64,000 bases of DNA from Octopus vulgaris (Eukaryota), in assembly GCA_951406725.2 (NCBI GenBank), contig OX597831.1, positions 28,954,001 to 29,018,000 of the forward strand, given 5' to 3'. The position numbers were made by a program, and so were the translations under genes. The notes below the pieces were generated by a model that did not search any database, was not told the DNA's origin, and was given only the letters and a program-made list of their open reading frames with translations. Below are positions 11,739 to 62,016 of the stretch, piece after piece. The number at the start of each line of letters is the position of its first letter. Positions within the stretch are counted from its first letter, which is position 1.

Positions 11739-11875
11739 GTATATACATATGTATATATGTATATACATATGTATATATATATATATATATATATACATAC
11801 ATATATACACACATATACATACACATATATATATATACATATACATATGTGTATCTATATATATATATATATATA

Positions 11876-18016: not shown

Positions 18017-18353
18017 TTATTTATTTATGCACCCTTTTCAAGCTTAGCCAGGCTCATGGGCCCGGTTTTCCAGTTTCTATAGCATATGTGTTCCCCCAGC
18101 TGGACGGGACGCCAGTCCATCAAAACGTTACTCAAGAAACAGGAAGAAAGAGTGAGAGAAAGTTAAGGCGAAAGAGTGAGAGAAAATTAAGGCGAAAGAG
18201 TACAACAGGGGTCGCCACCACACCCTGCCAGAGCCTCGTGGAGCTTTAGGTGTTTTTGCTCAGTAAACACACACAACGCCTGGTCTGAGAATCGAAACCG
18301 CGATTGGAGGATCGCGAGACCGCTGCCCTAACCACTGGGCCATTGCGCCTCCA
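18017..18353 (-). mobile_element. tRNA-derived SINE (family E) with TSD
   Basis: Same head as the 45285 copy; TSD cattcc/gtactaat at 18004-18016 and 18354-18366. Confidence 0.85.
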
Positions 18354-20755: not shown

Positions 20756-20791
<36 letters not shown>

Positions 20792-21357
20792 AATGATGGA
20801 CTTCTTTTCAGTTTCTGGATACCAAAATTCACACACAAGTCTTTGGTCGGTCTGAGGCTATAGTAGAAGGCGATTACTCAAGGTGCCTTGCAGAGGGATT
20901 GAACCTAAAACCACATGGCAGCAAAGAAAGCTCCTTAACCACATACATACATGAACAGAGGAGTGGCTGTGAGGTAAGTAGCTTGCTTACCAACCACATG
21001 GTTCCGGGTTCAGTTCCACTGCGTGGCACCTTGGGCAAGTGTCTTCTACTATAGTCTCGGGCCGACCAAAGAATTGTGTGTGGATTTGGTAGGCGGAAAC
21101 CGAAAGAAGCCCGTCGTATATATGTGTGTGTATATGTTTGCGTGTCTGTGTTTGTCCCCCCAACATCGCTTAACAACCGATGGTGGTGTGTTTACGTCCC
21201 CGAAACTTAGCAGTTCGGCAAAAGAGACCGATAGAATAAGTACTAGGCTTACAAACAATAAGTCCTGGGGTGTCGATTTGCTCGACTAAAGGCGGTGGGT
21301 GCTCCAGCATGGCCACAGTCAAATGACTGAAACAAGTAAAAGAGTAAAGAGTAAAAG

Positions 21358-21398
<41 letters not shown>

Positions 21399-21461
21399 CT
21401 GTTGCTTGTGTATATTTTGCTGAAAAGCACGTGTGTTAAAGGGAGAGAGAGAGGTAGAGGA

Positions 21462-21505
<44 letters not shown>

Positions 21506-21523
21506 GTAGAAGAAGCTGCCTAC

Positions 21524-22308
21524 TTGATAACATCCTTTTGGTGTTCCAACTGTTGATGCAGGTCTGTCTGTTCGTACAGGTAGTCCACCATAGCGTTCTT
21601 CACTTGTTCCTTGTCCCGCACAGGGGCCGCCGCGGCCCTTCCACAAACCCCCTCGTCTCCCCGCTCCCGCCTTCCGTCCCACAGCGGGGAGGTCACCACC
21701 CCGTCACCCATCCCCGCACTTCCCCCCTCCGCTCGTTCCGCTTCGTCGACCCCACAACAATCGGCATCGTAAATGTTATTGTTATTGTGGTGGTGGTGGT
21801 GGCTCTGTTCATGGTTGTAGTTGGTGGTGGTGGTGGTGGTGGTGGTGGTGGTTGCGGTATAGTTGGCAGTGTCAGTGGTGGTATTGATACCACTGATGGT
21901 ATTGGCGGTGGTGCTAATGGTGGTGGCGGTGGTTGTGTGGTGGCGATCGTTATAGTATGGGTTGTAATTGTTGTTTGTGCCGTCTGAGACTACAGTGGTG
22001 GTAGCAGTAGTGGCAGTAGTAGTGTTACAGTCATCATCATCATCATCATCATTGTCATCATCATCATCATCATCAACGAGACCCACCCCGCTATCACCAA
22101 CACTGCAACTGTCTACATCTTGAATCTTCACTTGCTCCTGTTGTTCCTTCTGCAGTTGTTCCTGTTTTTGTTGTTGTAAACAATCAGTAATAAATACGGC
22201 AGTATTGGTAGTAGTAGTAGCAGTAGTAGAAGTAGTATCACCAACAGTAGTAGTAGTAGTGGTGTTGGTGGCGGTATTGTGTGCAAGAGACAGAGGCGGT
22301 GGTGTCAT
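21524..22308 (-). CDS. Probable alternative first coding exon (261 codons, Thr/Asp/Gln/His-rich) of a motor-less myosin V isoform
   Basis: ATG at 22308 with an in-frame stop upstream. Frame stays open across several trinucleotide-only repeats. The GC/CpG-rich 3' part ends LYEQTDLHQQLEHQKDVIK at phase-2 donor AA|gtaggc, paralleling exon H. Confidence 0.65.
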
Positions 22309-22561
22309 TGTTACACAAAACAAAACGTCATTGACACATCTATATATATATATTATTCTAGCTATCCATTACTCAAATTTGTATATTTTCGTGTAATCTA
22401 CTTCCCTCTTGTCCATCAAATCAATCACTCTGTGCACCACCAATTGGTTCGTCTTATTGATCTCTTCCCTTGACCATCATTGCTTTATATCCATCGATGT
22501 CTTCGGCTATCTCTCACTCTCCAGATGTTCACCGATTTACCCGTGTATCTCGACCTCTCAA

Positions 22562-22620
<59 letters not shown>

Positions 22621-22914
22621 CAAGATTTACATCTATTTAACTATTTACCTACCGATCCGTCTATCTGTCTACCTTACACGGCTCCCTTAGAGTCCGTCTG
22701 ACCACTTATAGTTCAACCGTCTTCGGGTTATTTCTAGCTTACTGTCGTGTTTTTGTGTTTACTTCCAGATCATGCCTCTCCACACAATTTCTTTCACTCT
22801 TGTCTTCCTCTCTGTGTATGCGTAAACATTCAAACACACACACACACACACGTGTATGTGCGCATGTGTGTCTGTATGTGTGTGTATATAACCGCCAGCA
22901 GAGGGAGGAGAGAT

Positions 22915-22958
<44 letters not shown>

Positions 22959-23300
22959 ACAACAGAGGAAGCCTTACAAATTTCAAAGGTTCTGTACGTG
23001 TGTGTGTGTGTGTATGTCAGTATGCGGTCAGGTGAAACAAAGACAACGCAGACAGTCCGATATGAAATGTAAACCACGCTAATGGGAAGCGATGTATCTA
23101 CAGGTGGCAGTAGCGGCGGCGTTGTAGAAATAGCAGCAGTAGTAGTAGTAGCAGCGGTGTAGAAGTAATAGTGGTAGCGGTGGTGGTGGTGGAGGTGGTA
23201 GCGGTGGTGGTGGTGGAGGTGGTAGCGGTGGTGTCAGCCTATAAACAGATTCTTCTTTACTAAAACGTATGCGAGTGATTGTGCACCTATGTGTGTGAGG
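22309..23300 (-). promoter_or_regulatory. Candidate internal promoter / 5' UTR for the 21524-22308 exon
   Basis: Visibly higher CpG density than the rest of the intron, no SINE insertions, directly upstream of the ATG exon. No TSS can be pinpointed. Confidence 0.35.
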
Positions 23301-24065
23301 GGAGTCCGGCTACATTCCCTGCACTCACCCTCAACAATCACCACCACCACCACCAACAACAACAACAGGCATATTTCTCATTCTATGACACTAAGTGCTC
23401 TCTCCCCTTCACAAACACACACACAAACAGAAAAATACTCAACACACACACACACATAATCACGTACCCATACACACACACACACACACAAATATCTACA
23501 AATAAATGGTTCTTTTGCGTGCTATAAACCCTGGGGCATTCCAGCTATTTGATCCCTTGAACTCCCTATTCATAAAATAATAGTGTAAAATAAGCTGAGT
23601 ACACCACAGGCATCTGTACCCATAATTAGTAATTCTTGGGTAGAATCACAGTGGCAGAGTGTAACAATGCAGGGGCCAGTCCATGCAAAGAGTTTAACTA
23701 AGGTAAAACCCTTAAGCTCTGCAGGGTAAGATTGAACTTGGGCCCTTTTCATAATGATCAATACTATCATACGTTCCACATTTCCTCCCAGCAAGAGCTG
23801 GATGGGTCATCATGTTCCATGTCAGTTCTTATTCAGGGTTACAAACCCCAAAGATAAACTCAGGGGCCCACACCTTCCTTCTACATCCCATTTTTGGCAT
23901 GCTTTCTAGGGGATGGGTGGCACAACTTATCATCAAGGACTTCACTGTGGTCATATATTTAGGGGCCTGGGGAGGATTTAGTTAATAAGACTGACCCCTA
24001 CCTTAACCACCACTAAAATGAATACAGTAAGGGACTTAATCCCACATTTTGTTAATTCTGCAACT

Positions 24066-24104
<39 letters not shown>

Positions 24105-25668: not shown

Positions 25669-25889
25669 CCCTTTAGTGTTTGCATTATTCTGCCAAAATT
25701 AATCCTTTTTAATCCACATCGTTTTGAACTAATCATGCATTATCTTGGAGCTATGAGATTTTGATGAGGTAGCTGTTAATTTTTAAAACGATATTGTAGG
25801 GTTGGTGTGAGAGACCAGATCTGGCCAGTTTGAACATAAAACAGGCAGAATACTTTTGGCCGGATATGGCCGGTTTAAATGCTAAAGGG
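25669..25889. mobile_element. piggyBac-like MITE
   Basis: TTAA on both sides; TIRs ccctttagtgttt / aaatgctaaaggg. Confidence 0.8.
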
Positions 25890-26709: not shown

Positions 26710-26743
<34 letters not shown>

Positions 26744-26804
26744 TATGTGTATATATATATATATATACACATACACACACAGAGCCTGAAACATGAATAC
26801 ACAA

Positions 26805-26862
<58 letters not shown>

Positions 26863-26926
26863 GAACAAACACACGAACAAACACACATGCACACACACAG
26901 AGTTTGATACACATAAATACACACAA

Positions 26927-26972
<46 letters not shown>

Positions 26973-38173: not shown

Positions 38174-38308
38174 CTGATCTGTTGTGTGAAGTCATTGAGC
38201 TCTGCCTCACAATCATGGTTGTGATGTGTGCAGCAAACGTCGCCGTTGTTTACCTCTTGTTGTTGTTGTTGTGGGGACGGTGGCGGCGGTGCAGATGTGT
38301 TATCTGGC
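38174..38308 (-). CDS. Candidate alternative exon (RPDNTSAPPPPSPQQQQQEVNNGDVCCTHHNHDCEAELNDFTQQIR)
   Basis: Acceptor gccgttctttatag, open in the phase-2 frame for 135 nt to CAG|gtgact (frame-preserving; read-through gives TGA). Second donor GAG|gtaaac at 38254. Confidence 0.55.
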
Positions 38309-41394: not shown

Positions 41395-41581
41395 CTGTTC
41401 AACTTCTGGTGGAACTCAAAGGCTGTCTTCAACTCCTCCTCTTCACTCAGTTCTTCGCCGCCACGCGGTTTGTTGTGGACTTCGTCTTTCTTCTCAATAT
41501 TGTCACCAAGCCAGATGCTTTTGATGAATAATATCTCGGACCGGCGCCGGTCAAGTTCTTCCACCATTGTGTCGTATTGGT
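41395..41581 (-). CDS. MYO5: Myosin V-like exon H (NQYDTMVEELDRRRSEILFIKS...LSEEEELKTAFEFHQKLNR)
   Basis: Acceptor ttctctccag, donor AACAG|gttaga, 187 nt, phase 1-2. Resembles EELDVRKEEVLILRS and LNEDGELWLVYEGLKQANR of myosin V. Confidence 0.9.
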
Positions 41582-43882: not shown

Positions 43883-44003
43883 TTTTAAAGGCTTTGCCAG
43901 CCTCTGTGGTTCCTTCCTCATATTTGGGAGTTTTGGACAACGCATTCATCAAGTTGCCGATTTCTCGTTTCATCCTGTCGTTGTCGTTCTCAAGTTCTTG
44001 CAT
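43883..44003 (-). CDS. MYO5: Myosin V-like exon G (MQELENDNDRMKREIGNLMNALSKTPKYEEGTTEAGKAFK)
   Basis: Acceptor gtccctttcag, donor AAA|gtcagt, 121 nt, phase 0-1. Resembles [22 protein letters not shown] of myosin Va. Confidence 0.9.
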
Positions 44004-45088
44004 CTGAAAGGGACAACATTGGAAAGTCTGGGAGACTGGAAGATAGCTGTAGGGGTGTTGTGCAGTGTGTGTGTGTGTGTGTATATATGGGAGCAGCAGG
44101 GAGCTTGTGGATAGACAATAGCGTGTATAAAATTGTGCATTGAGAGGAAGGAGCAGGTGTGGATAAGAATAACATTAATAAAGACTCGTTTTGTATTGGC
44201 CACAAGAGCAACAGTACAAAAGCATTCAAGTACATACACAAACATAAACCTTCCAAACTCTGTGTGTGTGTATAAAGAGATACCCCCTCGATCATGAATG
44301 ACCATGGGATTGCACTAAGAAAGTTACCCTCCAAGGCACAAGTCTGGGCAAGGTTGTTTATGGAAGACCAGCAGTCACCCATGGATACCAGCCTCCCCTC
44401 TCTACACCACTGATGTTATCCAAGGGAAAGGCAAAGGCCGATACAGCTTGGCACCAGTGATATCACAACACATTTCTAAAGCTGAGAGAATTGGAGCAAC
44501 AAGAAATAAAGTGTCTTGCTCAAGAACACAACATGCAGCCCAGTCCAGGAATAGAACTCATTCCCTCATGATTGTGAGCCCAACAATTCAATCACTGAGC
44601 CATGTACCTTCACACACACACACAAGGCTTTGATCAGCTCAAGGATATAGTAGAAGATATGATACTTGCTCAAGATGCCATGCAGTGGAACTGAAACCAG
44701 AACCAAGTGGTCAGGAAGCAAGTTTTTTACCACACAGCCATGCCTGTGCCTATGCGTGTGTATATATGTGTATGTGTGTGTGTGTGTGTGTGTTATTTTG
44801 TTTGGGACAGTCCCATACCATTCTGTGGGTGCACAGGAGCTTCACACAAGTTATGACTTTTATAACTTGCCAGAAGATCCTATGCAGCCATGGGTGAAAA
44901 TCAGAGTAACAAAAGATTTGACTTGACCAAAATAAAATATATTATTAGTCTCTACTATGGTGTTTAGTACTCTTTTTTACTGACAGTCAGCATTAAAGGG
45001 TTATGTGTGTGTGTGTGTGTATGGGTCAAAACTGCACAAAACTCAAAAGACACAGACAAATGAGGGAGCAACAAACAAGGTGTATTAA

Positions 45089-45886
45089 CCCATTAACTGC
45101 CAAATTTTTTTATTCAGATCTTTTGGCTTTGCCAGGTGTTTTAGGAGTTAAAATAATGTATAGTTTATAAATTTTCTTCATATATGAATTATCTTGGAAA
45201 TTATGATGAATTTTTTGAAAAGTCCCAAATGGGGATTGCTGGAAAAAAAAATGCATATTTATCCTTTTCTATTCAATTACAATATTTCTTTTTTATTTAT
45301 GCGCCCTTTCCAAGCCTAGCCAGGCTCATGGGCCTGGTTTCACTGTTTCTGTGGCGTATGTGTTCCCCCCAGCTGGACGGAACACCAATCCATTGCAGGA
45401 AGAGAAAGTTGGGGCGAGAGAGTACAACAGGAGTTGCCACCACCCCCCTACCGGAGCCTTGTGGAGCTTCAGGTGTTTTCGCTCAATAAGCAGACACAAC
45501 TACCAGTCTGGGAATCGAAACCACGATCCTCTGACCGCGAGTCCGCTGCCCTAACCACTGGGCCACTGCGCCTCCACATTCAATTACAATAATAAACATT
45601 TTAGCTTTTTCGAAACTATAGTATCAAATGTGAATGTGTAAGAAATATCAATGATAGGAAATTTCAAAACAGTCAATATTTTTGTAGTTCAAAAATTGCA
45701 ATTTATGACATAAAATGTCCTCTAGAATTGGCCAGAGCTAATAACGACAAACTTTAACAACTAATTATTGTTAAACACATCTCTGCAAATGCCATGTATA
45801 TAAGCAATTCACTTTAAATACAACAAACAATGGCAGTGAGACTGTTTTTAGCCGATCCCCAAAAGGGGCTCATGGCAGGCAATGAG
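45089..45886. mobile_element. piggyBac-like MITE with a nested SINE
   Basis: TTAA-cccattaactgcca ... tggcaggcaatgag-TTAA. Confidence 0.65.
45285..45577 (-). mobile_element. tRNA-derived SINE (family E) with 14-bp TSD
   Basis: Head gtggaggcgcagtggcccagtggttaggg...gtttcgattccc; TSD attcaattacaata at 45271-45284 and 45578-45591. Confidence 0.88.
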
Positions 45887-45991
45887 TTAATTTGATGATC
45901 AGAGAAAATGGGAAAGTCTCTGATATTTCAAGCCTATCGTCTTCTGCTGTATATTTAATACAAGTGCCCAATACAAAAATGCAAAGTTTAT

Positions 45992-46038
<47 letters not shown>

Positions 46039-46252
46039 GGTTTGAAGATGATGTACAGGTATTATATATTAGAAGAAATGAGGTACTCAGAAATCTGGAT
46101 GGTTTTATATTTACAGATATTTATTAGTATGTTCCATGTTTTTATAAAACATATATCATATATTAGCGCTTTCATCCACTCTAGTGGAGTTTTCAAATTG
46201 AACTTTTGTAGGAATTTTGACTCTTTTTATAGTATTATTGAGTGTGTAGAGG

Positions 46253-46305
<53 letters not shown>

Positions 46306-46308
46306 GGG

Positions 46309-46911
46309 TAAAGATCCCCTTCGGTCATGAATGACCATGGGATTGCACCTAGAAAGTTACCCTCCTAGACACAAGTCTGGGCAAGGTTGTTTTTATGGAA
46401 GGCCAGCAGTCGCCCATGCATACCAGCCTCCCCTCTCCACACCACCAGTGTTATACAAGGGAAAGACAAAGGTCGATACAGCTTGGCACCAGTGACGTCG
46501 CAACTCATTTCTACAGCTGAGTGAACTGGAGCAACGTGAAATAAAGTGCCTTGCACGAGAACACAACACGCAGCCCGGTCCGGGATTCGAGCTCACAACC
46601 TCACGATCGTAAGCTCGACGCTCTAACCACTGAGCCATGCGCCTTCACTAGAACATCAGGATCAGTGTAAAGGCACTTTATTTCACGTTGCTCCAGTTCA
46701 CTCAGCTGTAGAAATGAGTTGCGATGTCACAGGTGCCAAGCTGTATCGACCTTTGTCTTTCCCTTGGATAACACTGGTGGCGTGGAGAGGGGAGGCTGGT
46801 ATGCATGGGCGACTGCTAGCCTTCCATAAACAACCTTGCCCGGACTTGTGTCTAGGAGGGTAACTTTCTAGGTGCAATCCCATGGTCATTCATGACCGAA
46901 AGGGGTCTTTA
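46309..46911. repeat. Inverted SINE duplication, ~240-bp arms with ~117-nt loop
   Basis: 46309-46552 is the reverse complement of 46670-46911, sharing private variants. Confidence 0.9.
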
Positions 46912-46956
46912 TATATATAAAACAAAGTAAACCTGCAAGGTACCACATGAGTGAAA

Positions 46957-47565
46957 ATATACAGGTAAGAGGATTTGAAAATGCAGAGGTCTTTTAAAGC
47001 TGTTTGACCGGTTTCACTTTTTAAAAAAAAGATTATCAAAAGTAAAATGTAAAGCTTTGTAGTGTTAAAAATGACTATCTTAGTTGTATTAAAATACAGT
47101 TATAGAGGCTTTGATAATGATAAGAAAATATTAAAAAAATAGAATCATTGACAATGATAAGAAAATGTTAAGAGGGGCTTTTTGTTTAAACAGTTTACAT
47201 GAAAGTGTTCAAAATAGGTAGTAAAATAAATTTATAATTATTTTAAGTTCATCAAAAATCATGGTTGTACAGAAGCATATATACAGAAGGAATCATATTT
47301 AAGTATTTATACAGAATTTTAGGGGAATGACCAACCTTTCCATCCTTCATCTCCTGTCTTGTACAAGGCAGGATTCTATTTAATATTTTCTTATCATTAT
47401 CAAAGACTGTATAACTGTATATTAATACTTTTGTGATAAGCATTTTTTAACACAACAAAGCTTTACATTTTACTTTTGATAATCTTTTTTAAAAAAAAGT
47501 GAAACTGGTCAAGTCAATAAACATCTTTAAAAGACCTCTGCATTTTCAAATCCTCTTTCCTATAT
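46957..47565. repeat. Long inverted repeat (~115-bp arms), MITE-like or Penelope-derived
   Basis: 46957-47073 versus reverse complement at 47441-47565. Confidence 0.8.
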
Positions 47566-47632
47566 ATATATATATTATGGAGATGTACTTGCATAGCAAG
47601 TGACCTGATCTGAGATCATGTACTGGAACAAA

Positions 47633-47894
47633 AACAATTGCAGCGTGGAAGGTGTTTATAAGCCATTTAAGAAGCACAAAAAATTCCGTTAGATTCACTT
47701 CAACATTTAAATTTTAATTTGTCAAAATATTTTCGTCGCTTTGAGATGCAGCACGGAATTTTGTCAGTGAACAGGTCACGGTCTCAAAACAACAAAAATA
47801 TTTTGACAAATTAAATTTAAATGTTGAAGTGAATCTAACGAATTTTGTGTGTTTCTTAAATGGCTTATAAACACCTTCCACGCTGCAATTGTTT
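47633..47894. repeat. Hairpin with ~113-bp arms and ~35-nt loop
   Basis: aacaattgcagcgtggaaggtgtttataagcc...tttgaga versus tctcaaa...ggcttataaacaccttccacgctgcaattgtt. Confidence 0.9.
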
Positions 47895-48078
47895 AAATAT
47901 ATATTGTTTGTGTGAGTGTAAGGTATGAGAGAAACTATATATACAACAGTTGTACATACATATCCCTGTATAAATGTATGCACAATGATGTATATGTTTT
48001 AATACGACCTATCAGTCGCCATGATAGATGGTTAGCCACTACACACATTTTTTTTCTCTCCTTGTTTTTTCTGTGTCC

Positions 48079-48114
48079 CTTTCTGTGGAAGAGCGTAGGC
48101 TCGAAACGTAAAAG
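48079..48114 (+). ncRNA. Variant/degenerate minimal hammerhead motif
   Basis: cttt-CTGTGGA-a-gagc-gtag-gctc-GAAACGTA-aaag; stems intact, core deviates from CUGANGA. Confidence 0.4.
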
Positions 48115-48307
48115 ACTTTTTCTATTCCTGAGCGTTATACTAATATATCTGTTTGTTTTGTACACCACCTGTCTTCGTCTTTTGTTTTTTTCGTAAACTC
48201 TCCCTACATATATGTATGCGCTTACAACCTACCCCAAACCATCCACCCTTGCCACGCATAACAGAATGAATGTTTGTGTGAATGAATGTTTGTCCACTTC
48301 TCCTTAC

Positions 48308-48454
48308 CTTTAGTGTGTTGTACACTGTATTTCCTTTATCTTTGTTCTCCTCATCGAGTCGTTCTCGCTCCGTCACCAGGCGTTTGTTCTCTTTTTCCAA
48401 GTCTTTAATGTGGTTTTGTAACTTCAACAGCAAACTGATGTCTTCCTTCTCAGG
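48308..48454 (-). CDS. MYO5: Myosin V-like exon F (PEKEDISLLLKLQNHIKDLEKENKRL...VYNTLK)
   Basis: Acceptor ctgtattctcag, donor AAG|gtaagg, 147 nt, phase 0-0. Resembles the class V medial-tail motif DMSLFLKLQKRVTELEQEK...YESLK. Confidence 0.92.
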
Positions 48455-49439
48455 CTGAGAATACAGAACAGGAGAAACCTTTTTACTGCAATGAAATGTT
48501 ATAACACACACACACACACACACATCAAATAAAAGTAGATTTTAAAAAATCTGAGCTGTATCATAAGTTAGCACTCCAGTGAATACTGACTAAACAGGGG
48601 TATCCAAAGTGGGTGATACTGACTCCTGGGAGTCGATAAATGCACATCTACTTAATTACTATTATTATTTACTTATTTTCTTGTACATGCCTGGGGATCG
48701 ATGAGGAGTCAAGGATTCCATGAAGGAGTCAATGGTCTAAAGAGTTTGGGAACCCCTGGGCTAACAGAATGCGTATCAGTAGATGATTTAACTTTAGGAA
48801 ATAATCTGTTGTGTCTGGGGAGAGTCATTTTCTTTTTGTGCCTTACAATTTAATACACTCACCTGTAAAATTTCCACTTATTTCTTATTTTTATTTTCCT
48901 AAACTTTTCGTTGTCTTGCAACTTTTTCAATAGTCTTGACTATCGATACAAACTGAAATTCTAGGGCTAATGAATTAGTTGTAGAATATAATACATTGAC
49001 CCTTTATTGTTTAAACTGGCCATATTTGGCCAAAATATTACCTGCTTTATGTTCAAACAAGCTCTGGGGGTCAATGCAATTGATTTACTTCCGCCCAAAA
49101 TTGCTGGCCTTGAGCCAAAATTTGAAATCATTATTATGGCTATCTCAAGCATTCATTTTATGCCGTGTCCCTCCCAATTTGTTGGAGCCCTTGGCTGATA
49201 ATCGAAAGGTATGGAGGACTGTGTGTAATGCTAGCATAGAATACTTTGAATCCAAATGTAGGAGACTGCATTAAGAGAGAGGGAGGGGGAAATATGATCA
49301 ACCCCTTGTGGCAGTTGTTCAGGGTCACTTTCATTGCCCTCAGTCCCACAGAATTTGGTTTTGTCAGCCACATCTGCTTCCATGGAAAACAATGTGTGGG
49401 AGATGCTATCATCACGTTTGATAAGCTGTCATAAGCAAG

Positions 49440-49479
<40 letters not shown>

Positions 49480-50489
49480 GGCTGGCAGAATTGTTTTCAT
49501 GCTGGGCAAAATGTTCATTGGCATTTCATCTGCCTTGACATTCTGAGTTCAAACTTTGCTGAGGGTGACTTTGCCTTTCATCCTTTTGGGGCTAATAAAT
49601 TAAGTACCAGTGAAATACTGAGGTTGATGTAAGCAACTTACCTCCTCCCCACAAATTTCAGCCTACAGTAGAAAGCATTATTATTATTATTATTATTATT
49701 ATTATCATTATTATTATTATCATTATTATTATTATTATTATTGTTATTATTACTGAGTGAGAGAGCAGCATATGACATCTAAATGATACTGGGATACAGA
49801 TATATGAAACCCAACATAACCATCATGACAACATGTCTGATAAGGATTTACTAAGCACATGCATCACAACCATATGTGTACGACATGGTGATCTCATACC
49901 AAGATAAACAATGCATGACCTTGCAGGTGAGGTCCATCTAGAATTTTCTTTAGGTCAAGTAGCCCATCCCAATCAAAATGTCCCTGAATAAGGGTTGTTT
50001 AAGGATGATGAATAAAACACCCATGTTTCCAGAGGTGAATTATTCAAGCCCCAAAGAATTCCTCTCGACATATGGCTATGATGCTCCCACACTACTTCTG
50101 CTCATGATCAGAGATGCACATATCGTCAGCCACTAAGGGACGTGCTCAACTGGTTAAGGGCAAACAACTGACAAGCAAATCTGTGGTATTGAGCAGAATT
50201 TGCTAACCATCTTTTATCCAGACAAAACAATGACATGATAACACTTCCAATCAGTTAAGATCAAGTCGAGGCCACTGTCTGGTACAGCATCAGGACATTT
50301 ATTATTATTATTATTATTATTATTCAGTAGATTTTGCGTGCACTTCACTCGAGCAGCTCTGTGGTTTTGAGCAGAATATTTGTTGTAACCTCGTGGTTTT
50401 ATACCAAGACAAAACAATGTACATGATAACACTTCCAATTAGTTAAGATCAGAAGTCATGAGAGCCACTGTCTGGTACAGCATCAGGAC

Positions 50490-50545
<56 letters not shown>

Positions 50546-50641
50546 CCTCATTTATTACCATAAAGCTGTCAAGTGAGTGGCATAAGAAACCTTGCAAATT
50601 GTATGGGATTTTTTAAATGGAATGAGCGAATTTATACATAC

Positions 50642-50734
50642 TTCATCCAGGGTTGGCTGTCTTTGGACTGGTCGGGTTTTTCGTTCGGCTGGAACAGGTC
50701 GGTCTGAACGTCTACTGGTCCCATAACCTTGGTC
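50642..50734 (-). CDS. MYO5: Myosin V-like exon E (DQGYGTSRRSDRPVPAERKTRPVQRQPTLDE)
   Basis: Acceptor tctccacttcacag, donor GAA|gtatgt, 93 nt, phase 0-0, open frame, CpG-retaining unique sequence. Confidence 0.82.
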
Positions 50735-53700
50735 CTGTGAAGTGGAGACAATAATTCATTTACAAATAATGGTAACAGTGGCAACAATAATGTAAGGTCA
50801 TACATATATTTAGAGGTAGATGTGGTACGACTGTTGTTTATATCAATCCTTATGACTGTCTTTCAACAACTGGATGATTTTTGGCTTTCAGGAACAAAAT
50901 TGAAATGATTAACAATTATGTTAAGTGACGGACAAAAAATAGAACTCGTTTATTTTTGCTAATCTATGTTCATTTCGTTATCTTCCTTCTTATCATTATG
51001 GTCATTATTATCTTATTAACATCATTATTGCTAATCAAGTTTAAATTAGCACATCCTGAAACAAGGAAGTTACATAATGAATATACTCTGTATGTGTTAG
51101 TATGTGAGTGTGTGTATAGGCAAACAGAAACACACACACATATAAATATACATATATACATACACAAACAAGCATATGCACACACACACATGTGTATCTG
51201 ATATCCCAATGTTTACAGAAACATCTAGAAATACACAAGCCAGACAACCTGAGGGCAAGAAACCTAGTGACCATCACTCCCAATTTATGGGTCAATGAAC
51301 AAGGTTTAGTTAAGAAGCAGAAACTGGTTCAAGGAGGATCAGTCCACACAACTTCTGACCACCACATCACATCACATCATGTCATGTCATCCTCATGTAC
51401 CATTCAGGTAATACAAGTTAAAAAAAGGGACCAAGAGTAATTTTGGCACACAAGGCCAGAAATTTTAAGGATGGAAGTAAGTCAATTACACTGACCCCAG
51501 TGTTTAATTAGCACTCATTTTATTGACCCCGAAAAGACAAAAGGCAAAGCTGACACCAGCAGAATTTGAACCCACGATGTAAAGAGCCAAACGAAATGTT
51601 GCTAAGCATTTTGTCTGAGGCCACTTAGTAAAGTGATTGGCATTAGGAAGGGCATCCAGCCGTGAAAACCATGCCAAAACAGAATCTGTGGGTGTTGGGG
51701 TCACATTATAACAGCACTCAGTTAATTCTGTAAGGTGGTTGGTGTTAGTGAGGGCATCCAGCCATAAAAACTATACCAAAGTAGACAGTGAAGCCTGGTG
51801 CAATACTCTGGCTTTCCAGATCTTGTAAAACCACCCAACCCATGCCAGCACGAAAAACAGGCGTTAAATGACGAAGATGACGTCAACAATTTGTATCAGT
51901 TCATTGCCTTAATAATGCTAACAATAATAATCCTTTCTATTATAGGCACCATGCCTGAAATTTTGCACCATGGGGCTAATTGATTGCATTAACCCAAGTG
52001 GTACTTATTTTATCATCAACCAACCCCAGAAGGGATGAAAGGCAAAGTCAGCCACGGTGGAATTTGAACCCAGAATGCAAAGCGCCAGACGAAATGCTGC
52101 TAAGCCTCTTGCTGGCTCATTAACAATTCTGCCAGCTCATTGCCTGAAGACACGGAATAATGAAACCAAGACCGAATCGTCTTTGGAAGGTCAGAAACTA
52201 CTCTAGTGTGAGTATCTAATGACAGGCATGTGTGTGTGTGTGGGGGTGGATGGATGGATGCGGTGGGAGAGTAACCAACATGGAGTGGATCGACAACCAA
52301 CTGCAGAATGGTATACAGCTAGTCTGAAGGTGATTTAGCGTTCCGTCCTGACACTTGGCTAAGCCATAATAGATAAGGCAGTGAGAGTGATCTCCCTTTG
52401 CGAATGGCATTGATTTCATAGATTTCTTAACGATGAAGGTGCCACACACATTAACAAAGAAACCATTATATGATACCTTGACTTGCTAGAAGTAGCAGCC
52501 AAATCGTCCTCCAATCACATCTGACTGTTTTAAAGAAGGATACATTGCCTAATGTAGGTTCTGTTCAGGATGGTCATGGTTGGACTGAGTTTGATCAGAG
52601 ATAACTTATAGGGTAACACCACCACACATATCACTGAACCCTATAGTGTTATACCACACACACACACAAAATACTTTCTTGAATTGTAGGAAACATGGAG
52701 CCAGCTCCCACGTTTCCATGGTGCATAAGTGACCAAGATCTCAATATTGCCATGAATGGGCACACAAGTCTGTCACACAAGGTCATCTATTTAAAGCTGA
52801 GTGAATTCAAGCAATGTGAAATGAAGTCTTTTACTCAACAACACAAGACACCACCCAGTCCGGGAATTGAAACCATGACCTTGCCACTGTGAAGGCAACA
52901 ACCCTAACCACTAGACCACACACAAATACACACACTAGATTACTTGTTAAAGTTAGCACTACAGTCTTTTATTCCACAACACAAGACACCACCCAGTCTA
53001 GGAATTGAAACCATGGCCTTGCAACTGTGGGTGCAAAAACCCTAAACACTAGACCACACACACTAGATCACTTGTCAACGTTAGCCCTGCAGATCTTCTA
53101 TAGGAATCACAGGCAGCACTGATTTTGTAACACCCATTACTCATTTTTCATTTCAATCACATTATTGTTGCTTATATCAGACGTCTTGGATACAAACCAT
53201 TGTGACAAAATCAGTGTTAGCCATAATTTCTATAGAAAGTCTGTAGAGATACCCTTAACAAGTGATTTAATAGCACTGCTAACACAGTAGAGTATTGACA
53301 GGGTATTAAAAAACGTTTAATACACTTTGAAGTACAAAGACCCTTCTTTTGTCACGAATGACCATGGGATTGCACCTAGAAAGTTCCTCTCCAAAGCACA
53401 AGTCCAAGCAAGGTTGTTTTTTTTATGGATGACGAGCAGTCACCCATGCATACCAGCCTCTCCTCTCCATGCCACTGATGTTATCCAAGGGAAAGGCAAA
53501 GGCTGATACAGCTTGGCACCAATGACATCACAACTCATCTCTACAGATGAATGAACTGGAGCAATGTGAAATAAAGTGTCTCACTCAAGAACACAACGCA
53601 ACTCGGTCCAGGAATTGAACTCACAACCACATGATTGTAAGCCTGATGCTCTAACCACCGAGCCATGTGCCTTCACACTTTGTAGTAGTAATATGTTATG

Positions 53701-53763
53701 GTTGCATAACGAAATACCGTGTCCCTACCGGTCATTAACACACACTAGGATCTATTAAATTAC

Positions 53764-54062
53764 CTCCTTGTCGTCTTGTTCCGCTACCACCTCAGCTACA
53801 ATATTGGCGGCCAGTTGTTCCTCATCTTCCTCAACTTCAGCAGGAGGCACCTCCTCCTCAGCCGACTCAAAGCTGATTGTGCTGTGGTCTGAAGGTGTAC
53901 GATGGTGGCTCTGCTTCAGTACTGTCATTTCGTGCCGCAGGTTGTCGTAGAGTTGCTTTAGTTGTTCGTAATCATGCATCATTTTCTCGTGGTGGGCTTT
54001 CTCAATGTCCATGTCTTTCTGTCTGTCAACAGCTGTCAGTGATTCAATTTTCTGCTCATATT
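53764..54062 (-). CDS. MYO5: Myosin V-like exon D, end of proximal coiled coil plus PEST-like region (..YEQLKQLYDNLRHEM..HHRTPSDHSTISFES..)
   Basis: Acceptor ctttcctcag, donor GAG|gtaatt, 299 nt, phase 1-0. Resembles myosin Va motifs RLEERYDDLKEEM and HKRTDSTHSSNESE as recalled. Confidence 0.92.
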
Positions 54063-54123
54063 CTGAGGAAAGAAAACAATAGAAATGTGAAAGATTGAAA
54101 ATTATTGTTATTGTTATTATTAT

Positions 54124-54757
54124 TGAGTGAGAGAGCAGTGCATGCCATCAAAGTGACACTGGGGTAAAATATACGAAGCCCAGTATACCCATCATGACAA
54201 CCTGTCTGATAAGGATTTAACAAGCACATGCATCACAACCATATGTGCGCGACATGGTGATCTCATATCAAGATAAACAGCGCATGACCTTGCAGGTGGG
54301 ACTCAGTTAGAATTTTCTTCTGGTCAAGTAACCCATCCTGCTCAAAAGGTCCCTGAATAAGGGTTGTTTAAGGATGTTGAATGAAACACCCATGTTTCCA
54401 GAGGTGAATTATTCAAACCCCAAAGAATCCCTCTCAACACATGGCTATGATGCTCCCCCACAACTTCTGTTGATGATCAGAGATGGACATGTCGTCAGCC
54501 AAATCTTCCTCCAATCACATCTGATTGTTTTAAAGAAGGATACATTGCCTAAAGTAGGTTCTGTTCAGGATGGTCATGGCTGGACTGAGTTTGCTCAACT
54601 GGTTAAGGTCAAACAACTGACAAGCAAATCTGTGGTATTGAGCAGAATATTTGCTGTAATCCATATTTTATACCAAGACAAAACAATGTACATGACAACA
54701 CTTCCAATCAGTTAAGATGAGAAGCTATGAGAGCCACTTCTGGTACTGCATCAGGGC
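54124..54757. mobile_element. ~550-bp interspersed repeat (family F) embedded in (TTA)n tracts
   Basis: Same-orientation copies at 49753-50296 (partial duplicate 50370-50490) and 55097-55600. Confidence 0.75.
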
Positions 54758-54784
54758 ATCATCATCATCATCATCATCATCATC

Positions 54785-54870
<86 letters not shown>

Positions 54871-55637
54871 GGCAGCAAGCTGGCTGAGTCGTTCGCATAC
54901 TTGATGAAATGCTTGGCGGTATTTCACCCATTGCTATAATCTGAGTTCAAATTCTGCTGAGGTCAACTTTGCCTTTCATCCTTTTGGGGGGTTGATAAAG
55001 TAAGTACCAGTTGCATACTGGGAGCAATGTATTCAACTAGCCTCCTCTCCCAAATTTCAAGCCTTGTGCCTTTAGTAGAAATGATAATTATTATTATTGA
55101 GTGAGAGAGCAGTTCATGCCATCAAAGTGTCACTGGGGTAAAATATACGAACCCAGTATACACATCATGACTACCCGTCTGATAAGGGTACACCAGGCAC
55201 ATGCATCACAACCATATGTGCGCGACATGGTGATCTCATATCAAGATAAACAGCGCATGACTTTGCCAGTGGGGCCCATCTAGAATTTTATTCAGGTCAA
55301 GTGTCCATCTCACTCAAAAGGTCCCTGAATAAAGTTTGTTTAAGGGTAATGAACTAAACACCCATGTTTCCAGCAGTAAATTATCCAAGCCCCAAAGAAT
55401 CCCTCTCAACACATAGCTATGATGCTCCCCACCTACTTCTGCTCATAATCAGAGATACATATATTGTCAGCCACCAAGGGACACGGTGAACTGGCTGAGG
55501 TCAAGCAACTGACAAGCAAATCTGTGGTACTGAACAGAATATTTAGTCCATCTTTTATATTAAAACAAAACATACATGATAACACTTCCAATCAGTTATC
55601 ATCACCATTTAACATCTGCCTTCCATGGTGACATGGG

Positions 55638-55683
<46 letters not shown>

Positions 55684-56102
55684 TTTACAACATGATAATT
55701 TGTCATCATCATCGCAAGCCTCTTACTATATAAGATAACTGTCATCTTTTATCAGATGATTATCACAGATCTGATACACACAATCATCTTAGATCTCCTA
55801 CCACATGGTAACATGATTACAAATCTGACACCACATAATCATCAGATCTCGAATGACATAATCTTCTCATATATTTTACCATATGATACCATATGAACAT
55901 CATAAATTTTCTACATGATACCTCATGAACATCTCAGATATGGTGCTGCATTACACCACATGATCATCACATATCACCCATTATAAGATCCTCTCAGATA
56001 TCATATCACATCGTCATCTCAGACCTCTGACCATGTGATATCAACAAACAGATTTGTTTGTTGATATTAATAACAATAATACAAAAAATTTAAGAAAATA
56101 AC

Positions 56103-56196
56103 CTTCAATTTTCCCTTCATCATCTTTTATCTTCGACTGAGCACTAAGAAGCTTCTGGTTGAGGGTTGTGTTTTTCTCATTCAAGACTTTTGATTC
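56103..56196 (-). CDS. MYO5: Myosin V-like exon C (ESKVLNEKNTTLNQKLLSAQSKIKDDEGKIE)
   Basis: Acceptor ttttttttatag, donor AAG|gttatt, 94 nt, phase 0-1, matching the phase-1 start of exon D. Confidence 0.85.
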
Positions 56197-57025
56197 CTAT
56201 AAAAAAAAAACACAATAATTCATTATGTGCAACAGAAGAAGCCTTGGTTTAAAATGGCAAGCTGTGTATTATACTTAAAGTAGATACATTACAGAAAGAC
56301 AAATTAACTGCTGTGTTTGCACCCCACCCCACTGATAGTATCTCTTTTGAACATAGAGCGTTAAAAAAACACAGAGATATATCAGTAGGAGAGTAAAATT
56401 ATCCAGCAGTGGTGGTGGTATTGTTAAATGTGCATTTCTACCTCTAAGCTTTGTCAGCAGAAAGTGGCCATTGGTGAACACGGCACACCTATCAAAGACA
56501 TGCTGAGGATGAATACCACACATAATTAGGCTTTCCATGATGTATCTGCTTTAAGTAGGTTACATACAGATTGCTATTTTAATAATTTACATAATACACA
56601 CGAACATCATACATATATATATACAAATATATATACAAATATATATATATATATATGGAAACATTCGAGCGAGGTCGTTGCCAGTGCTGCTGGACTGGCT
56701 CCTATGCATGTGGCACATAAAAAAGCACCATTTGAGCGTGGCCGTTGCCAGTACTGACTGACTGACCCTGGTGTCAGTGGCTCGTAAAAGCACCCACTAC
56801 ACTCCCGGAGTGGTTGGCATTAGGAAAGGCATCCAGCTGTAGATCAAGATTGGAGCCTGGTGCAGCCATCTGGTTTGCCAGACCTTAGTCACATCGTCCA
56901 ACCCATGCTAGCATGGAAAGCGGATGTTAAACGATGAACGACGATATATATGTATGTATGTATAATATACATAATATTTGTGTTTTTATCACATATATAT
57001 AATATACATACATACACATATATAT

Positions 57026-57060
<35 letters not shown>

Positions 57061-57399
57061 AACAGATTTGAATGAATGGGACCAGAGAGATTTGTTGGGA
57101 CCTGTGCCAGAATGAGCCAAGGTAAGACCAAATTCATTTCTCTAATTAATTTGGCAAGGAAAGGAGGGCCACAGATTCACAATTCCCATACCAAAGATAT
57201 TTTCAGTTTTTTTCAACACGTATGTATCAATGTATTGCAAATCATTAAAATGACACATATATATATATGTTTGTCCAGGATAGGATTACACAGCCACAGC
57301 AGGAAATGTATTAGGAGATGAAATGTAAAAGCCAGACTAGATTATTTTATGTGCAACTCCATTGTCTCCCGAGACAAAAAGGATACCAACAACAACCAC

Positions 57400-57450
<51 letters not shown>

Positions 57451-59179
57451 ATATATATATATGTATGTTCTCTGTACAGTGGTTGGCATTAGGAAGGGAA
57501 TCCAGCAGCAAAAAAACCATGCCAAAGCAAGACAGTGGAGCTTAGCACAGTCCTTTGTCCCTTGAAACAGTCCAACCCATGCCAGCAAGGAAGACAGGCA
57601 TTAAATGATTATATATCATCATCATCATCATCATCATTTAACTTCCATTTTCATGCTGGCATGGGTTGGACGGTTTGACTGAAAACTGGTAAGCCTGGGA
57701 GCTGCACCAGGTTCCAATCTGATTTGGCATGGTTTCTACAGCTGGATGCCCTTCCTAATGCCAACCACTCTAAGAGTGTGGCAGGTGCTTTTTACATGAC
57801 ATATAGTCCAAAGTTGTGCAAAAATATGAACAAGAAACGAAAGACAGAGACAGGTGAGGGAATGACAAACAAGGTGTATTAGTGTGACACTCAGGTAAAA
57901 TGTAAGAGTCTTTGATGTTTTGAGCTTAAATGAAATGAGGAAAGGAAACAGATGGAGAGAGGGAAAAAAAAAGAGAGAAAGAAGGTGTCTGGATTAACCG
58001 GTGCAGGAGTGGCTGTGTGGTAAGTAGCTTGCTTACCAACCACATGGTTCTGGGTTCAGTCACACTGCATGGCACCTTGGGCAAGTGTCTTCTACTATAG
58101 CCTCGGGCCGACCAAAGCCTGGTGAGTGGATTTGGTAGACGGAAACTATGTATATGTGTGTGTATGTTTGTGTGTCTGTGTTTATCCCCCCAACATCGCT
58201 TGACAACCGATGCTGGTGTGTTTATGTCCCCGTAACTTAGTGGTTCGGCAAAAAAAACTGATAGAATAAGTATTAGGCTTACAACGAATAAGTCCTGTGG
58301 TCGATTTGCTCGACTAAAGGCGGTGCTCCAGCATGGCCAGTCAAAATGACTGAAACAAGTGAAAGAGTGAAAAGAGAGAGTTGCACAAAAATATACAGAT
58401 GTTGTCACCTTGATTCTGCACACACGTGTGTGTATGGGTGTACACATATGTGTGTGTGTGGTATGCGTTAAGTGCCACTGTAACTAGCATCATAGTCAAA
58501 GGTGGGGCAAGGGTAACTTGATTTGAAGAATATAAAAAGCAAATGAAAAGGAGGAGGGGGAGGGGGAAGCGTAGATGTAAGGGAGATAATTCTCGTTGAT
58601 GTAGAAAATATGACTACCAACACCATCATCATCATCATCTTTTAATGTCTGTTCTCCATACTGGCATGGGTTGGACAGGTTTGCCAAGAGTTGGCCAGCT
58701 CGAGGGCAGCCCGGGCCCCATTTGTCTGTTTTGACATGGCTTCTACAGTTGGATGCCCTCCTAATGTCAACCACCCTACAGCGTGTACTGGGTACTTTAA
58801 CGTGACACCAACATGGGAGCTTGTATGCAGCACTGGCACAGCTCCAATCATATTTACATCTGCATGTGAACAATTGGCATGTGTAGCACCAACACCACAC
58901 CCTCTCTCTTCCTCAGTGTGTGTGTATACACACTCAAACACACACATATGTGTATGTGGAATGAACAATTTTAAACTCTATATTTGGAATGAACAATTTT
59001 AAATGCTGTTGGATTCTTCTCATAAGGTATTGGTATCTTACATATACACCATTCTGCCTAAAAAATGGATCTACAAATTCAATGTCCCTACATATCTCAC
59101 ATCTATTTTCTTTCCTCCACCTCACTCTCTATTTGGTATCCCGTCTAAATTAACTATTACTTAACCATTCTCTCACACC

Positions 59180-59231
59180 GTCTCTGATGAAGAGATATAA
59201 TTAATAAATATCCTGGAAACAGCCGTAAGAC
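59180..59231 (+). ncRNA. Minimal type I hammerhead ribozyme motif
   Basis: gtct-CTGATGA-agagatat..atatcctg-GAAAC-agcc-GTA-agac; stem I gtct/agac; stem III loop one change from palindromic agct. Confidence 0.7.
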
Positions 59232-60816
59232 CTTCTATCTATAAATGTTCTAATATCTACACAGCCTTGGTTTTTTTTATCTCATTACGCAAAAAATTCT
59301 TATATATATTGATATATATATAACTGGAATATAGTTGGAGTATATATATAGTTGGAATGCATATATAATTATAAAAGAATGGTCAATTCTCCAAGTCAGC
59401 TAGAATATATACATAAAATATATATATATGATAAGCATCATCATCATCATCTTACATCTACTTTTCCATGTTTACATGGGTCGGATGGAGTTTATTGAAG
59501 CAGATTTTCTATGGCTAGATGCCTTTACTTTCGCCAACCCTCACCTGTTTCCAAGCAAGGTAAATATTTTCCCGTAGCCAGACAAGTTTCCAGAGAATAT
59601 TGGAAATGAACGACACTGCTTGTATAATGTCTTGAAGCAGGAGTGAGTTTGGAAAGTAGATGCAGGTGGAAGTAGATATAGACAGGTGAACTTAGAAGTA
59701 AAGGAAAGACGGACTTAGATGTGAAGTAAATTTGAAGTCTTCAGTTAGACTGAAAGCAGTATATATAGTTATAGAGGGTAAAGAACCGCTTTGGTCATTA
59801 ATTTACTATGGGATTGCATTTAGAAAGTTACCCTTTCAGGCACAAGTCCAGGCAAGATTGTTTATGGAAGATCAGCAGTCACCATACCAGCCTCCTCTCC
59901 ACATGCCACCAATGCTAAGGGAAAGGCAAAGGCCGATACAACTTGGCACCAGTGACATCACAACTCATTTCTACAGATGAGAGAACTGGAGCAAAGTGAA
60001 ATAAAGGGTCTTGCTCAAGAACACAATATGTAGCCTGGTTCAGGAATTGAACTCACAACCTGATAATTGTGAGCCTGATGCTCTAAGCATTGAGCATATA
60101 TATACTGACCGTATAACTATATATGAACTATGATTATATAACTGGATATAGTTATATAATCATAATATATATAGTTATATGGTTAATATATATATATATA
60201 TATGTTAGTAAGGCTTAAATAGTTGGTTGGAAGAGTTTAGCAGGGAGAAATAGTAACAGACAGGTAAACTTTGAAGTTAACGAAAGGTAGACTTTGATGT
60301 GGAGTCAATTTAGAAGTCTTTATTTTTATTGGAGTCAGCAAGAATCAAATAACTGGTGGTGGCAGTTGGAGGTGTTTAGGGAGGAATAGAGGGACACACA
60401 GACAGATTTACAAGAATGAGAGAAAATGGACTTTGAAACAGAGGAAGAAGTCTTTGTGTGTATTGGAGTCAATCAGTGAAGAGGAAGGTGAAATAGGGTT
60501 GATGTCTTTAATGAAGGACAAGAGACAAGAAACTGGTGATGGTGGTAGTGATGATGGTGATTGGTGGATTTTAGAGAGATGTACAGATAGACACACAGAC
60601 AGACAGACACTTGTAGAAGCGTGGAAGATGGACATTATCCAGGCAAGGAAGTGGTACATGTTGGTGAGGAGTGTGGATTCTACAAAAACAGTGGCAACCA
60701 CTGATTGCTGTCATGCATCCTTACAATGACAGCTCATTGACACTAAACACAAAACACCACCACCACCAACAACAACACTCCAAATACAAAAACTACATTC
60801 AACAGAATTCACCAAC

Positions 60817-61041
60817 CTCATCATAAGTCAGTTTCATCTTCTTCTTCTCCGCCATTAAGACAGTTAATTCTTCAGTCTTCTGTTTCAAATTGCTCTTCAG
60901 TTCTGAAACCAGACTCTCAGCATCTTGCAACCTCAGTCTGATCTCTCTGCAGCCGTCATGCTCTGTGGAGAGTTTTTCATACAAGTCTTGGAACTGTTTG
61001 TTGTTGGCCTCATTACTTCTCAAATGTTTCAAGTCATGCTC
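60817..61041 (-). CDS. MYO5: Myosin V-like exon B, coiled coil (EHDLKHLRSNE...KKKMKLTYDE)
   Basis: Acceptor tcgttttag, donor GAG|gttggt, 225 nt, phase 0-0, E/K/L-rich heptads, in frame with exon A. Confidence 0.88.
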
Positions 61042-61872
61042 CTAAAACGATTGGAAAGAGGAAGTGAGGTGGAAATATAAATATATAATATATACAAACG
61101 ATAATTAAATCAAGAGTCAGAGTTGGCAATTTTAAAAATAAAATTTTATTTTACAGAAACAGAAATAACTTATTACAATAACAGAAAAATTTCATTGATT
61201 AATTTATTATTAATTAAGTAAATATTGGCTATGTAAAACAGGAAACAAATAGATGTGGTTTGTCTCTCTATAGATAATGTTTCTATATAGAGATTACCTA
61301 TGAATTAATGAACTTTGAACCTTAATCAACAAAGAACACACTAACATATACACAGACACATGCATACAGTTATATCCATACAAACTTATACAATCATATG
61401 TAGAAACACATACAACTATACCCACACAAACACACACACATGTACAACCATATCTACATAAATACACATGTGCATACACCCATGTCCACATAAACACACA
61501 CACATAGCCAAATCCACACAAACATACTTGCAATCACACAAATCTACAAAGTGATCCACACAAACATATCTACACACAAATCTGGATACATCCCAATACA
61601 CACATCACTGGATACAATCATACACATGTCCAAACAACTACAACTACACAAAAACACACACATCTACACAACACACACACAAATGTGCACACATCCATAC
61701 CCAAATGCATATCTCTACACACACATACACACACATGTCATTGAAGACTATCATACACCCTCAAACAAATCCAGATACCCTGATTTACACATCTCCACAC
61801 ACATCACAATGTGCAATCATATATCCATCTACACCAATCCATACACATACGTGCATATACACAGACACCTAC

Positions 61873-61962
61873 CTTTTCTTTAATTTGGTTAGACAATTCA
61901 ATAATCTTGTTACACAGACGTCGGTTGGACAATGTGAGTTCATCTGTGTCCTTGGCCTTTCT
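61873..61962 (-). CDS. MYO5: Myosin V-like exon A (start of coiled coil after IQ region): RKAKDTDELTLSNRRLCNKIIELSNQIKEK
   Basis: Acceptor ttgtttttttgcag, donor AAG|gtaggt, 90 nt, phase 0-0. Resembles the class V segment [29 protein letters not shown] as recalled. Confidence 0.85.
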
Positions 61963-62016
61963 CTGCAAAAAAACAAACAAATATGCATAATTAGAGATAT
62001 ATGTGTCTGTGAGTGA

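What the first reader, a model, noticed from the sequence alone, without database searches (positions are those of the whole stretch)
21524..22308. Probable motor-less myosin V isoform from an internal first exon built on a duplicated exon end
Seen: an ATG-led 785-nt open frame in a CpG-rich patch 19 kb downstream of exon H, ending at a phase-2 donor (AA|gtaggc). Its last 19 residues LYEQTDLHQQLEHQKDVIK align without gaps to the last 19 of exon H, LSEEEELKTAFEFHQKLNR, which also ends at a phase-2 donor. Its microsatellites are all trinucleotide, consistent with frame constraint. Established: this segment of class V myosins leads into the distal coiled coil and cargo-binding DIL domain, and headless tails act as dominant negatives or adaptors. 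Inference: an internal promoter yields a protein with a ~240-aa disordered Thr/Asp/His/Gln N-terminus fused to the myosin V distal tail.
Basis: partly seen in the sequence, partly recalled or inferred. Interest (0 to 1): 0.8.

Follow-up and report, generated by a model that had tools for sequence, protein, structure and literature searches.

The report
Headless myosin V isoform in octopus
An unannotated exon deep inside the octopus myosin V gene is joined in frame to the gene's cargo-binding tail exons in one transcript contig, and it likely starts its own mRNA, which would encode a motor-less myosin V predicted to compete for or hold the motor's cargo.

Summary
The window is part of the Octopus vulgaris myosin V gene (minus strand). 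The 785-nt ATG-led frame 22308-21524 is real. In 1 of 4 runs laid, a contig ends the exon exactly at the predicted donor and goes on for 23 letters that read in frame K-LLENQLQ, the next myosin V exon. Two other runs have contigs running unbroken over the ATG and about 245 nt upstream, which favours a first exon over a cassette. The predicted product is 793 aa: about 230 low-complexity residues, a 30-residue helix in heptad register, then the distal coiled coil and globular tail. No single record links ATG to junction, seven short uORFs precede the ATG, and no protein relative was found, so translation is unshown. The 'duplicated exon end' is borderline (p about 0.03 after correction); the end resembles a nearby cassette exon at least as well. 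It is built like molluscan catchin/myorod and headless Myo10; ten literature searches found no natural headless animal class V myosin. The scan noted a headless muscle-myosin start earlier on other DNA (e1-9959047). New variant of a known kind.

The parts
21524..22308 (-). Coding part of the new exon: ATG at 22308 (A at -3), 261 codons plus 2 nt; Thr/Asp/Asn/Gln/His-rich, then a terminal helix
   Evidence: parts covered by contigs in 4 of 4 runs laid
21524..21612 (-). Last 30 codons: predicted helix (residues 233-260), in heptad register with the distal coiled coil; 6 of 10 a/d positions in the last 35 residues are hydrophobic, against 2 of 10 in exon H
   Evidence: single-sequence model, pLDDT about 60 here
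21518..21523 (-). Splice donor gtaggc, phase 2; read unspliced it gives AAG TAG, so the frame stops one codon later
   Evidence: used in X14 record 4
22309..22553 (-). Likely 5' UTR, continuous with the ATG; holds seven uORFs of 3-15 codons that all end before 22308
   Evidence: X2 record 11 (22086-22553) and X6 record 12 (22086-22549) run across it; uORFs; start site itself not mapped
22564..22620 (.). (TA)28 tract just upstream of where three contigs end (22541, 22549, 22553); candidate promoter region, untested
38174..38308 (-). 135-nt phase-2/2 cassette exon in the same intron, 45 aa; present in 6 O. sinensis isoforms and (variant) in P0017, absent from the 4 O. vulgaris proteins fetched
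41395..41581 (-). Exon H of full-length myosin V, ending ...FHQKLN-R; competes for the same downstream acceptor
43883..61980 (-). Seven upstream stalk exons of myosin V (about 61962, 61041, 56196, 54062, 50734, 48454, 44003), all left out of the predicted short isoform

Best explanation
The stretch 22308-21524 is an exon of the octopus myosin V gene that is spliced in frame to the tail exons in one transcript contig; it is likely the first exon of a transcript from an internal promoter near 22.55 kb and would encode a 793-residue motor-less myosin V, predicted to dimerise through its distal coiled coil and to bind cargo adaptors without moving them. Shown: open frame, donor use, in-frame join, contigs continuous upstream of the ATG. 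Inferred: promoter, one mRNA from ATG to tail, translation. Mechanism, by analogy: the product lacks motor, IQ neck and proximal coil (residues 1-1326 of P0010) and keeps residues 1327-1857; the exon's last 30 residues replace and lengthen the helix that exon H supplies; the dimeric globular tail occupies Rab/adaptor sites on vesicles and so acts, where expressed, as a brake on myosin V transport or as a static tether, the low-complexity N-terminus serving as spacer or regulated anchor.
For: Junction contig with the cut exactly at the predicted GT and seven in-frame myosin residues beyond. Contigs X2 record 11 and X6 record 12 cross 22339, 22357 and the ATG with no loose end. All 11 in-frame AG sites have 3-13 pyrimidines in 20 (at most 8 T) against 14-18 at the real acceptors. 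Longest ATG-to-donor frame in the intron. Heptad register kept, predicted helix at the end only. The only indel seen inside the frame is 3 nt (X2, X14), while an 8-nt insertion lies upstream of the ATG (X6) (both sit at repeats, so weak). Mouse Myo5a aligns across the same junction; a mouse tail starting at residue 1258 displaces endogenous myosin Va from melanosomes (PMC2175227, passages); Rab3/11/39B bind the globular tail (PMC3814135, passages). Molluscs already make a headless class II myosin this way (PMC3912159, PMC4410989, passages).
Against: The join rests on one contig of one run, with 23 letters on the far side, under the tool's 31-letter standard for bridging; the run is labelled organism B and its RNA status is a guess. 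No record links ATG and junction. The unbroken upstream contigs could be unspliced RNA or DNA; no silent stretch or DNA run was laid. Seven uATGs lie in the 245 nt before the ATG, no fewer than base composition predicts (about 4-5 expected by hand). No protein relative of the exon end: 0 of 22 candidates, 0 among 1.84 billion representatives, no exact record; none of 6 short hits to the tail is such an isoform. A headless maize O1 transcript gave no detectable protein (PMC3935558, passages).
Confidence: 0.6

Rival explanations
1. Real spliced transcript from an internal promoter, but little or no protein: a regulatory or leaky RNA.
For: Seven uORFs before the ATG; no protein relative or record; maize O1 precedent; most of the frame is repeat-derived.
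Against: 261 stop-free codons ending in frame at the used donor; all uORFs end before the ATG; terminal helix in the right heptad register; resemblance of the end to two coding exon ends.
Confidence: 0.2
2. A very large cassette exon (up to 271-277 aa from acceptor 22339 or 22357, or shorter from an inner AG) spliced into full-length myosin V between exon H and the next exon, like vertebrate exon D.
For: Both ends would be phase 2 and the frame is open back to 22368; the intron already holds a phase-2/2 cassette; the junction contig says nothing on the 5' end.
Against: Contigs of X2 and X6 pass 22339 and 22357, and those of X1 and X2 pass 21913 and 21892, without loose ends; the candidate acceptors have poor pyrimidine tracts; none of 23 full-length or near full-length cephalopod myosin V proteins fetched carries it.
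Confidence: 0.12
3. Intronic or stand-alone transcription over a repeat-rich patch; the join is a rare cryptic splice or chimera (unspliced, the frame ends ...VIK-stop at 262 aa).
For: One contig only; the same run shows an inverted chimera at 21609 (depth 3.1), so artefacts occur; trinucleotide tracts make long frames elsewhere in this intron.
Against: The junction contig (depth 14.8) is among the deeper pieces of its run, cuts exactly at a GT named beforehand and lands in frame on the first base of the right exon; no laid record runs over either end of the stretch.
Confidence: 0.08

Closest known systems
Catchin/myorod (molluscan muscle myosin II gene)
   Same: Headless product of a myosin heavy-chain gene; long unique N-terminal exon joined to the C-terminal coiled coil (PMC3912159, PMC4410989, passages).
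   Different: Class II and filament-forming, shown as protein, conserved across molluscs; here class V with a cargo-binding globular tail, no protein shown, no relative found.
Headless Myo10 (mouse)
   Same: Alternative start sites inside an intron, spliced to the downstream exons; proposed natural dominant negative or scaffold (PMC5725431, passages).
   Different: Its first exon is all 5' UTR and adds no sequence; class X; here the exon would add 262 residues and rebuild the start of the coil.
Drosophila myosin rod protein (Mrp)
   Same: Alternative start gives a tail-only myosin with a lineage-specific N-terminus (PMC3912159, passage).
   Different: Class II; made by a 5' extension of the first rod exon, not by a separate exon more than 21 kb upstream of its acceptor.
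Headless plant myosin XI: Arabidopsis HDK, maize O1 short transcript
   Same: Coiled coil plus DIL domain without motor, the same domain content (PMC3935558, passages).
   Different: HDK is a separate gene from partial duplication; the O1 transcript gave no detectable protein; neither is described there with a long unique N-terminus.
Vertebrate myosin Va exon D and engineered tail fragments
   Same: Same region of the stalk: mouse ...LKETNR-LLESQL aligns with octopus ...HQKLNR-LLENQL; that this is the C/E boundary where exon D inserts is recalled, not from a call. Tail from residue 1258 is dominant negative.
   Different: Exon D is a 27-residue cassette in the full motor and binds Rab8/Rab10; tail fragments are artificial.

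Membership tests
Class V myosin gene product | Host gene has myosin head, IQ motifs and DIL domain | tested here: met
   Window exons match P0007/9/10/16 exactly; P0007 has Myosin_head, IQ, DIL
Class V myosin gene product | New exon joined in frame to the tail exons | tested here: met
   One contig, 23 letters beyond the donor, 1 of 4 runs
Headless myosin isoform from an internal promoter (catchin, Hdl-Myo10 type) | Transcript starts inside the gene and lacks motor exons | tested here: inconclusive
   Two contigs continuous for about 245 nt upstream of the ATG, no upstream joint; no cap mapping, no long read
Headless myosin isoform from an internal promoter (catchin, Hdl-Myo10 type) | Protein is made | not testable with these tools
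   No proteomics; no record in the collections; seven uORFs
Headless myosin isoform from an internal promoter (catchin, Hdl-Myo10 type) | Kept in related species | tested here: inconclusive
   Contigs under two organism labels cover the frame; no cephalopod genome could be searched; protein searches blank
Catchin/myorod proper | Derived from the class II muscle myosin gene, rod tail | tested here: not met
   Host gene is class V
Exon-D-type cassette | Used acceptor upstream, included in full-length motor | tested here: inconclusive
   No loose end at 22339/22357 in X2, X6; not in any fetched protein; the junction run X14 was informative only up to 22019
Exon arisen by tandem duplication of exon H | Homology beyond coiled-coil composition, same phase | tested here: inconclusive
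   Same phase; protein p 0.03-0.04; DNA 28 of 56, best of 2786 GT-ending 56-mers in the intron, codon-shuffle p 0.004, but p 0.12 once the amino acids are fixed

The most novel reading that the evidence does not exclude
Octopus makes a natural, tissue-restricted headless myosin V, a class V counterpart of catchin: its own first exon supplies a Thr/Asp/His low-complexity anchor and extra heptads that stabilise a tail dimer, which switches vesicles from transport to tethering or inhibits full-length motors in trans; the exon, the cassette at 38308-38174 and exon H are an old series of duplicated exon ends at the site where vertebrates gained exon D.
Probability: 0.25. Interest if true: 0.72.

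Novelty: new variant of a known kind. Interest (0 to 1): 0.5.

Why it matters
Myosin V tails have served for decades as artificial dominant negatives. A natural version from an internal promoter would be a built-in way to tune actin-based vesicle transport by cell type, and would extend the catchin/Mrp/headless-Myo10 strategy to animal class V. It also corrects the annotation: none of the O. vulgaris, O. sinensis or O. bimaculoides proteins fetched has the exon. The kind of system is known and the function is inferred, which caps the interest.

Tried and rejected
No whole genome is held, so the acceptor exon's position and other species' introns could not be read. Run search: 24 runs listed, 20 hold part of the stretch, but no RNA holder is listed on record; I laid 4 of 24 and take nothing from the other 20. 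In X1, X2 and X6 no contig covers 21524-21670, and in X14 none covers above about 22020; the tool filters records, so these holes say nothing either way. Three contigs end at 22541, 22549 and 22553 without loose ends, but no DNA run was laid, so this does not map a start. Species divergence from X14 was not used: its differences lie at contig ends. Protein searches with the exon end were blank; Pfam gave nothing meaningful; Atlas gave no usable hit for P0001. The tail search among shorter proteins gave 6 hits, all apparently gene-call fragments with intron-like N-termini. The Atlas tail search shows motor-less DIL clusters in chordates (471 aa, named 'Fragment') and plants: a lead only. Rfam: 0 matches in 18000-27000. 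The sigma-70 scan does not apply to an animal gene. The trinucleotide-only argument was rejected. DNA comparisons with the cassette exon were one base off register and are replaced. Literature: searches found no natural headless animal class V myosin; the library lacks most subscription papers, and I recall, unchecked, that protein databases list short tail-only human MYO5B isoforms. PMC11041842 and PMC6345916 passages held nothing relevant; PMC9258296 concerns octopus myosin VIIa, not V. No complex prediction was run.

Full report
Setting. Exon translations from the window find cephalopod myosin V. Of 8 exon translations tested, 7 match the O. vulgaris proteins P0007/9/10/16 letter for letter, 3 of them only these; the eighth, a cassette, matches only O. 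sinensis isoforms. tblastn places stalk exons from about 61980 down to exon H (41581-41395) and the cassette (38308-38174) on the minus strand; the next exon, beginning LLENQLQ, is not in the window, so the intron after exon H exceeds 41 kb.

The observation. The frame from ATG 22308 to the donor at 21524 is open for 261 codons plus 2 nt and is the longest ATG-to-phase-2-donor frame in the intron. Its 262 residues hold 53 Thr, 32 Asp, 20 Asn, 16 Gln and 11 His. A single-sequence model is low in confidence (mean pLDDT 45.9), with a helix at 233-260. The CpG count is the window's highest at the exon's 3' end, and raised (16-17 per 500 nt against a median of 6) upstream. The trinucleotide-only pattern is common in this intron (17 of 35 overlapping windows).

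Transcript evidence. I laid 4 of 24 listed runs, from four studies and two organism labels; all are contigs and their RNA status is a guess. In X14 a 109-nt contig (depth 14.8) matches 21524-21609 without difference and carries 23 loose letters that start at the predicted donor. Read by hand on the minus strand they complete the Lys codon and give LLENQLQ and the first base of E, the sequence after exon H in the octopus proteins. The overhang is under the tool's 31-letter standard; a short overhang is what an assembly graph would give at an acceptor with several donors (inference). Short of a processed copy, DNA cannot give this join, as the target exon is more than 21 kb away. In X2 and X6 single contigs run from 22086 over the ATG to 22553 and 22549, and X1 covers 22352-22541, without loose ends at the in-frame AGs 22339 and 22357; these and nine inner AGs have weak pyrimidine tracts. 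This favours a first exon, but unspliced RNA or DNA would look the same, and no record links ATG and junction.

Product and mechanism. The join predicts 262 + 531 = 793 residues: no motor, neck or proximal coil; the distal coil and DIL tail are kept. In the register fixed by the shared exon, 6 of 10 a/d positions of the new exon's last 35 residues are hydrophobic (exon H 2, cassette 4), so the exon would start the distal coil about two heptads earlier. Mouse Myo5a aligns across the junction. In mouse the distal coil CC3 includes exon E and tail sequence (PMC9284544, passages); the tail dimer both binds cargo adaptors and closes the motor (PMC9733927, passages); Rab6/14 bind upstream of the alternative exons, Rab8/10 exon D, Rab3/11/39B the globular tail (PMC3814135, passages); a tail from residue 1258 displaces the motor from melanosomes (PMC2175227, passages); Myo5A/B promote Rab11a membrane tethering in vitro (10.1101/129072, abstract). 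The likely role is thus competition for tail-binding adaptors, or motor-free tethering. All of this is transfer from vertebrates; none was tested on the octopus protein.

Against translation. Seven uORFs of 3-15 codons lie in the 245 nt before the ATG; all end before it. No relative of the exon end exists in the collections searched, and no headless protein was among 6 short tail hits. A maize headless myosin XI transcript yielded no protein.

Origin. Against exon H the last 19 residues score 15 with 4 identities; other stalk segments match the new end better (the homologous site ranks 6-11 of about 542); with length chosen freely p is 0.026-0.039. At DNA level 28 of 56 bases agree, the best of 2786 GT-ending 56-mers in the intron and beyond codon shuffles (p 0.004), but not beyond synonymous redrawing (p 0.12), and 1 of 271 stalk 56-mers does as well. 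Noticed afterwards: the last 35 residues score 26 against the cassette exon (shuffle p about 0.001; 0 of 1549 stalk positions), 19 against its variant in P0017 (p about 0.004); DNA 41 of 102, again explained by the amino acids. Old duplication and convergence on one helix register both fit; I put duplication from exon H at about one in three.

Comparison and verdict. It is built like catchin/myorod and Mrp and headless Myo10, and has the domain content of plant headless myosin XI, but belongs to none of them. Ten searches of the open-access library found no natural headless animal class V myosin; subscription papers and supplements were not seen and may hold one. New variant of a known kind: exon and splice about 90% likely real, first-exon transcript about 80%, whole reading with protein and role 0.6; interest 0.5.

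Noticed in passing
window 38308-38174 (-): Phase-2/2 cassette exon intact in this genome, annotated in O. sinensis isoforms but in none of the four O. vulgaris proteins fetched; Cys/His-rich middle; lies where vertebrate exon D would (boundary recalled); its end resembles the new exon's end.
   Followed up: partly
window 22494-22311 (-): Seven short uORFs in the likely 5' UTR; the last stops 2 nt before the main ATG. Possible translational control.
   Followed up: partly
window 21609 and about 21806-21774: X14 record 6 (59 nt, depth 3.1) joins 21580-21609 to letters that look by eye like the opposite strand near 21774-21806; probably a fold-back library artefact.
   Followed up: no
window 22314, 22340, 22371, 21995: Variants in contigs: C>T, 8-nt TA insertion and A>G upstream of the ATG, 3-nt deletion in the frame.
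   Followed up: no
window 14490-14809 (-): Frames that resemble a mariner-type transposase end (from recall); Pfam gave no match at E 0.01.
   Followed up: partly
window about 11870-12160 (+): Frame that resembles the tail of a LINE reverse-transcriptase ORF (from recall); Pfam gave no match at E 0.01.
   Followed up: partly
proteins P0002-P0026: Two further optional segments in the cephalopod tail (LNSIAT after ...VISQ, and a 19-residue piece after ...LKAGE/LKDGE) vary among isoforms of octopus, argonaut and squid; these exons lie outside the window.
   Followed up: no
window 23079-23360: A second trinucleotide-rich patch with a 24-nt tandem, 0.5-0.8 kb upstream of the contig ends; not covered by the read test.
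   Followed up: no
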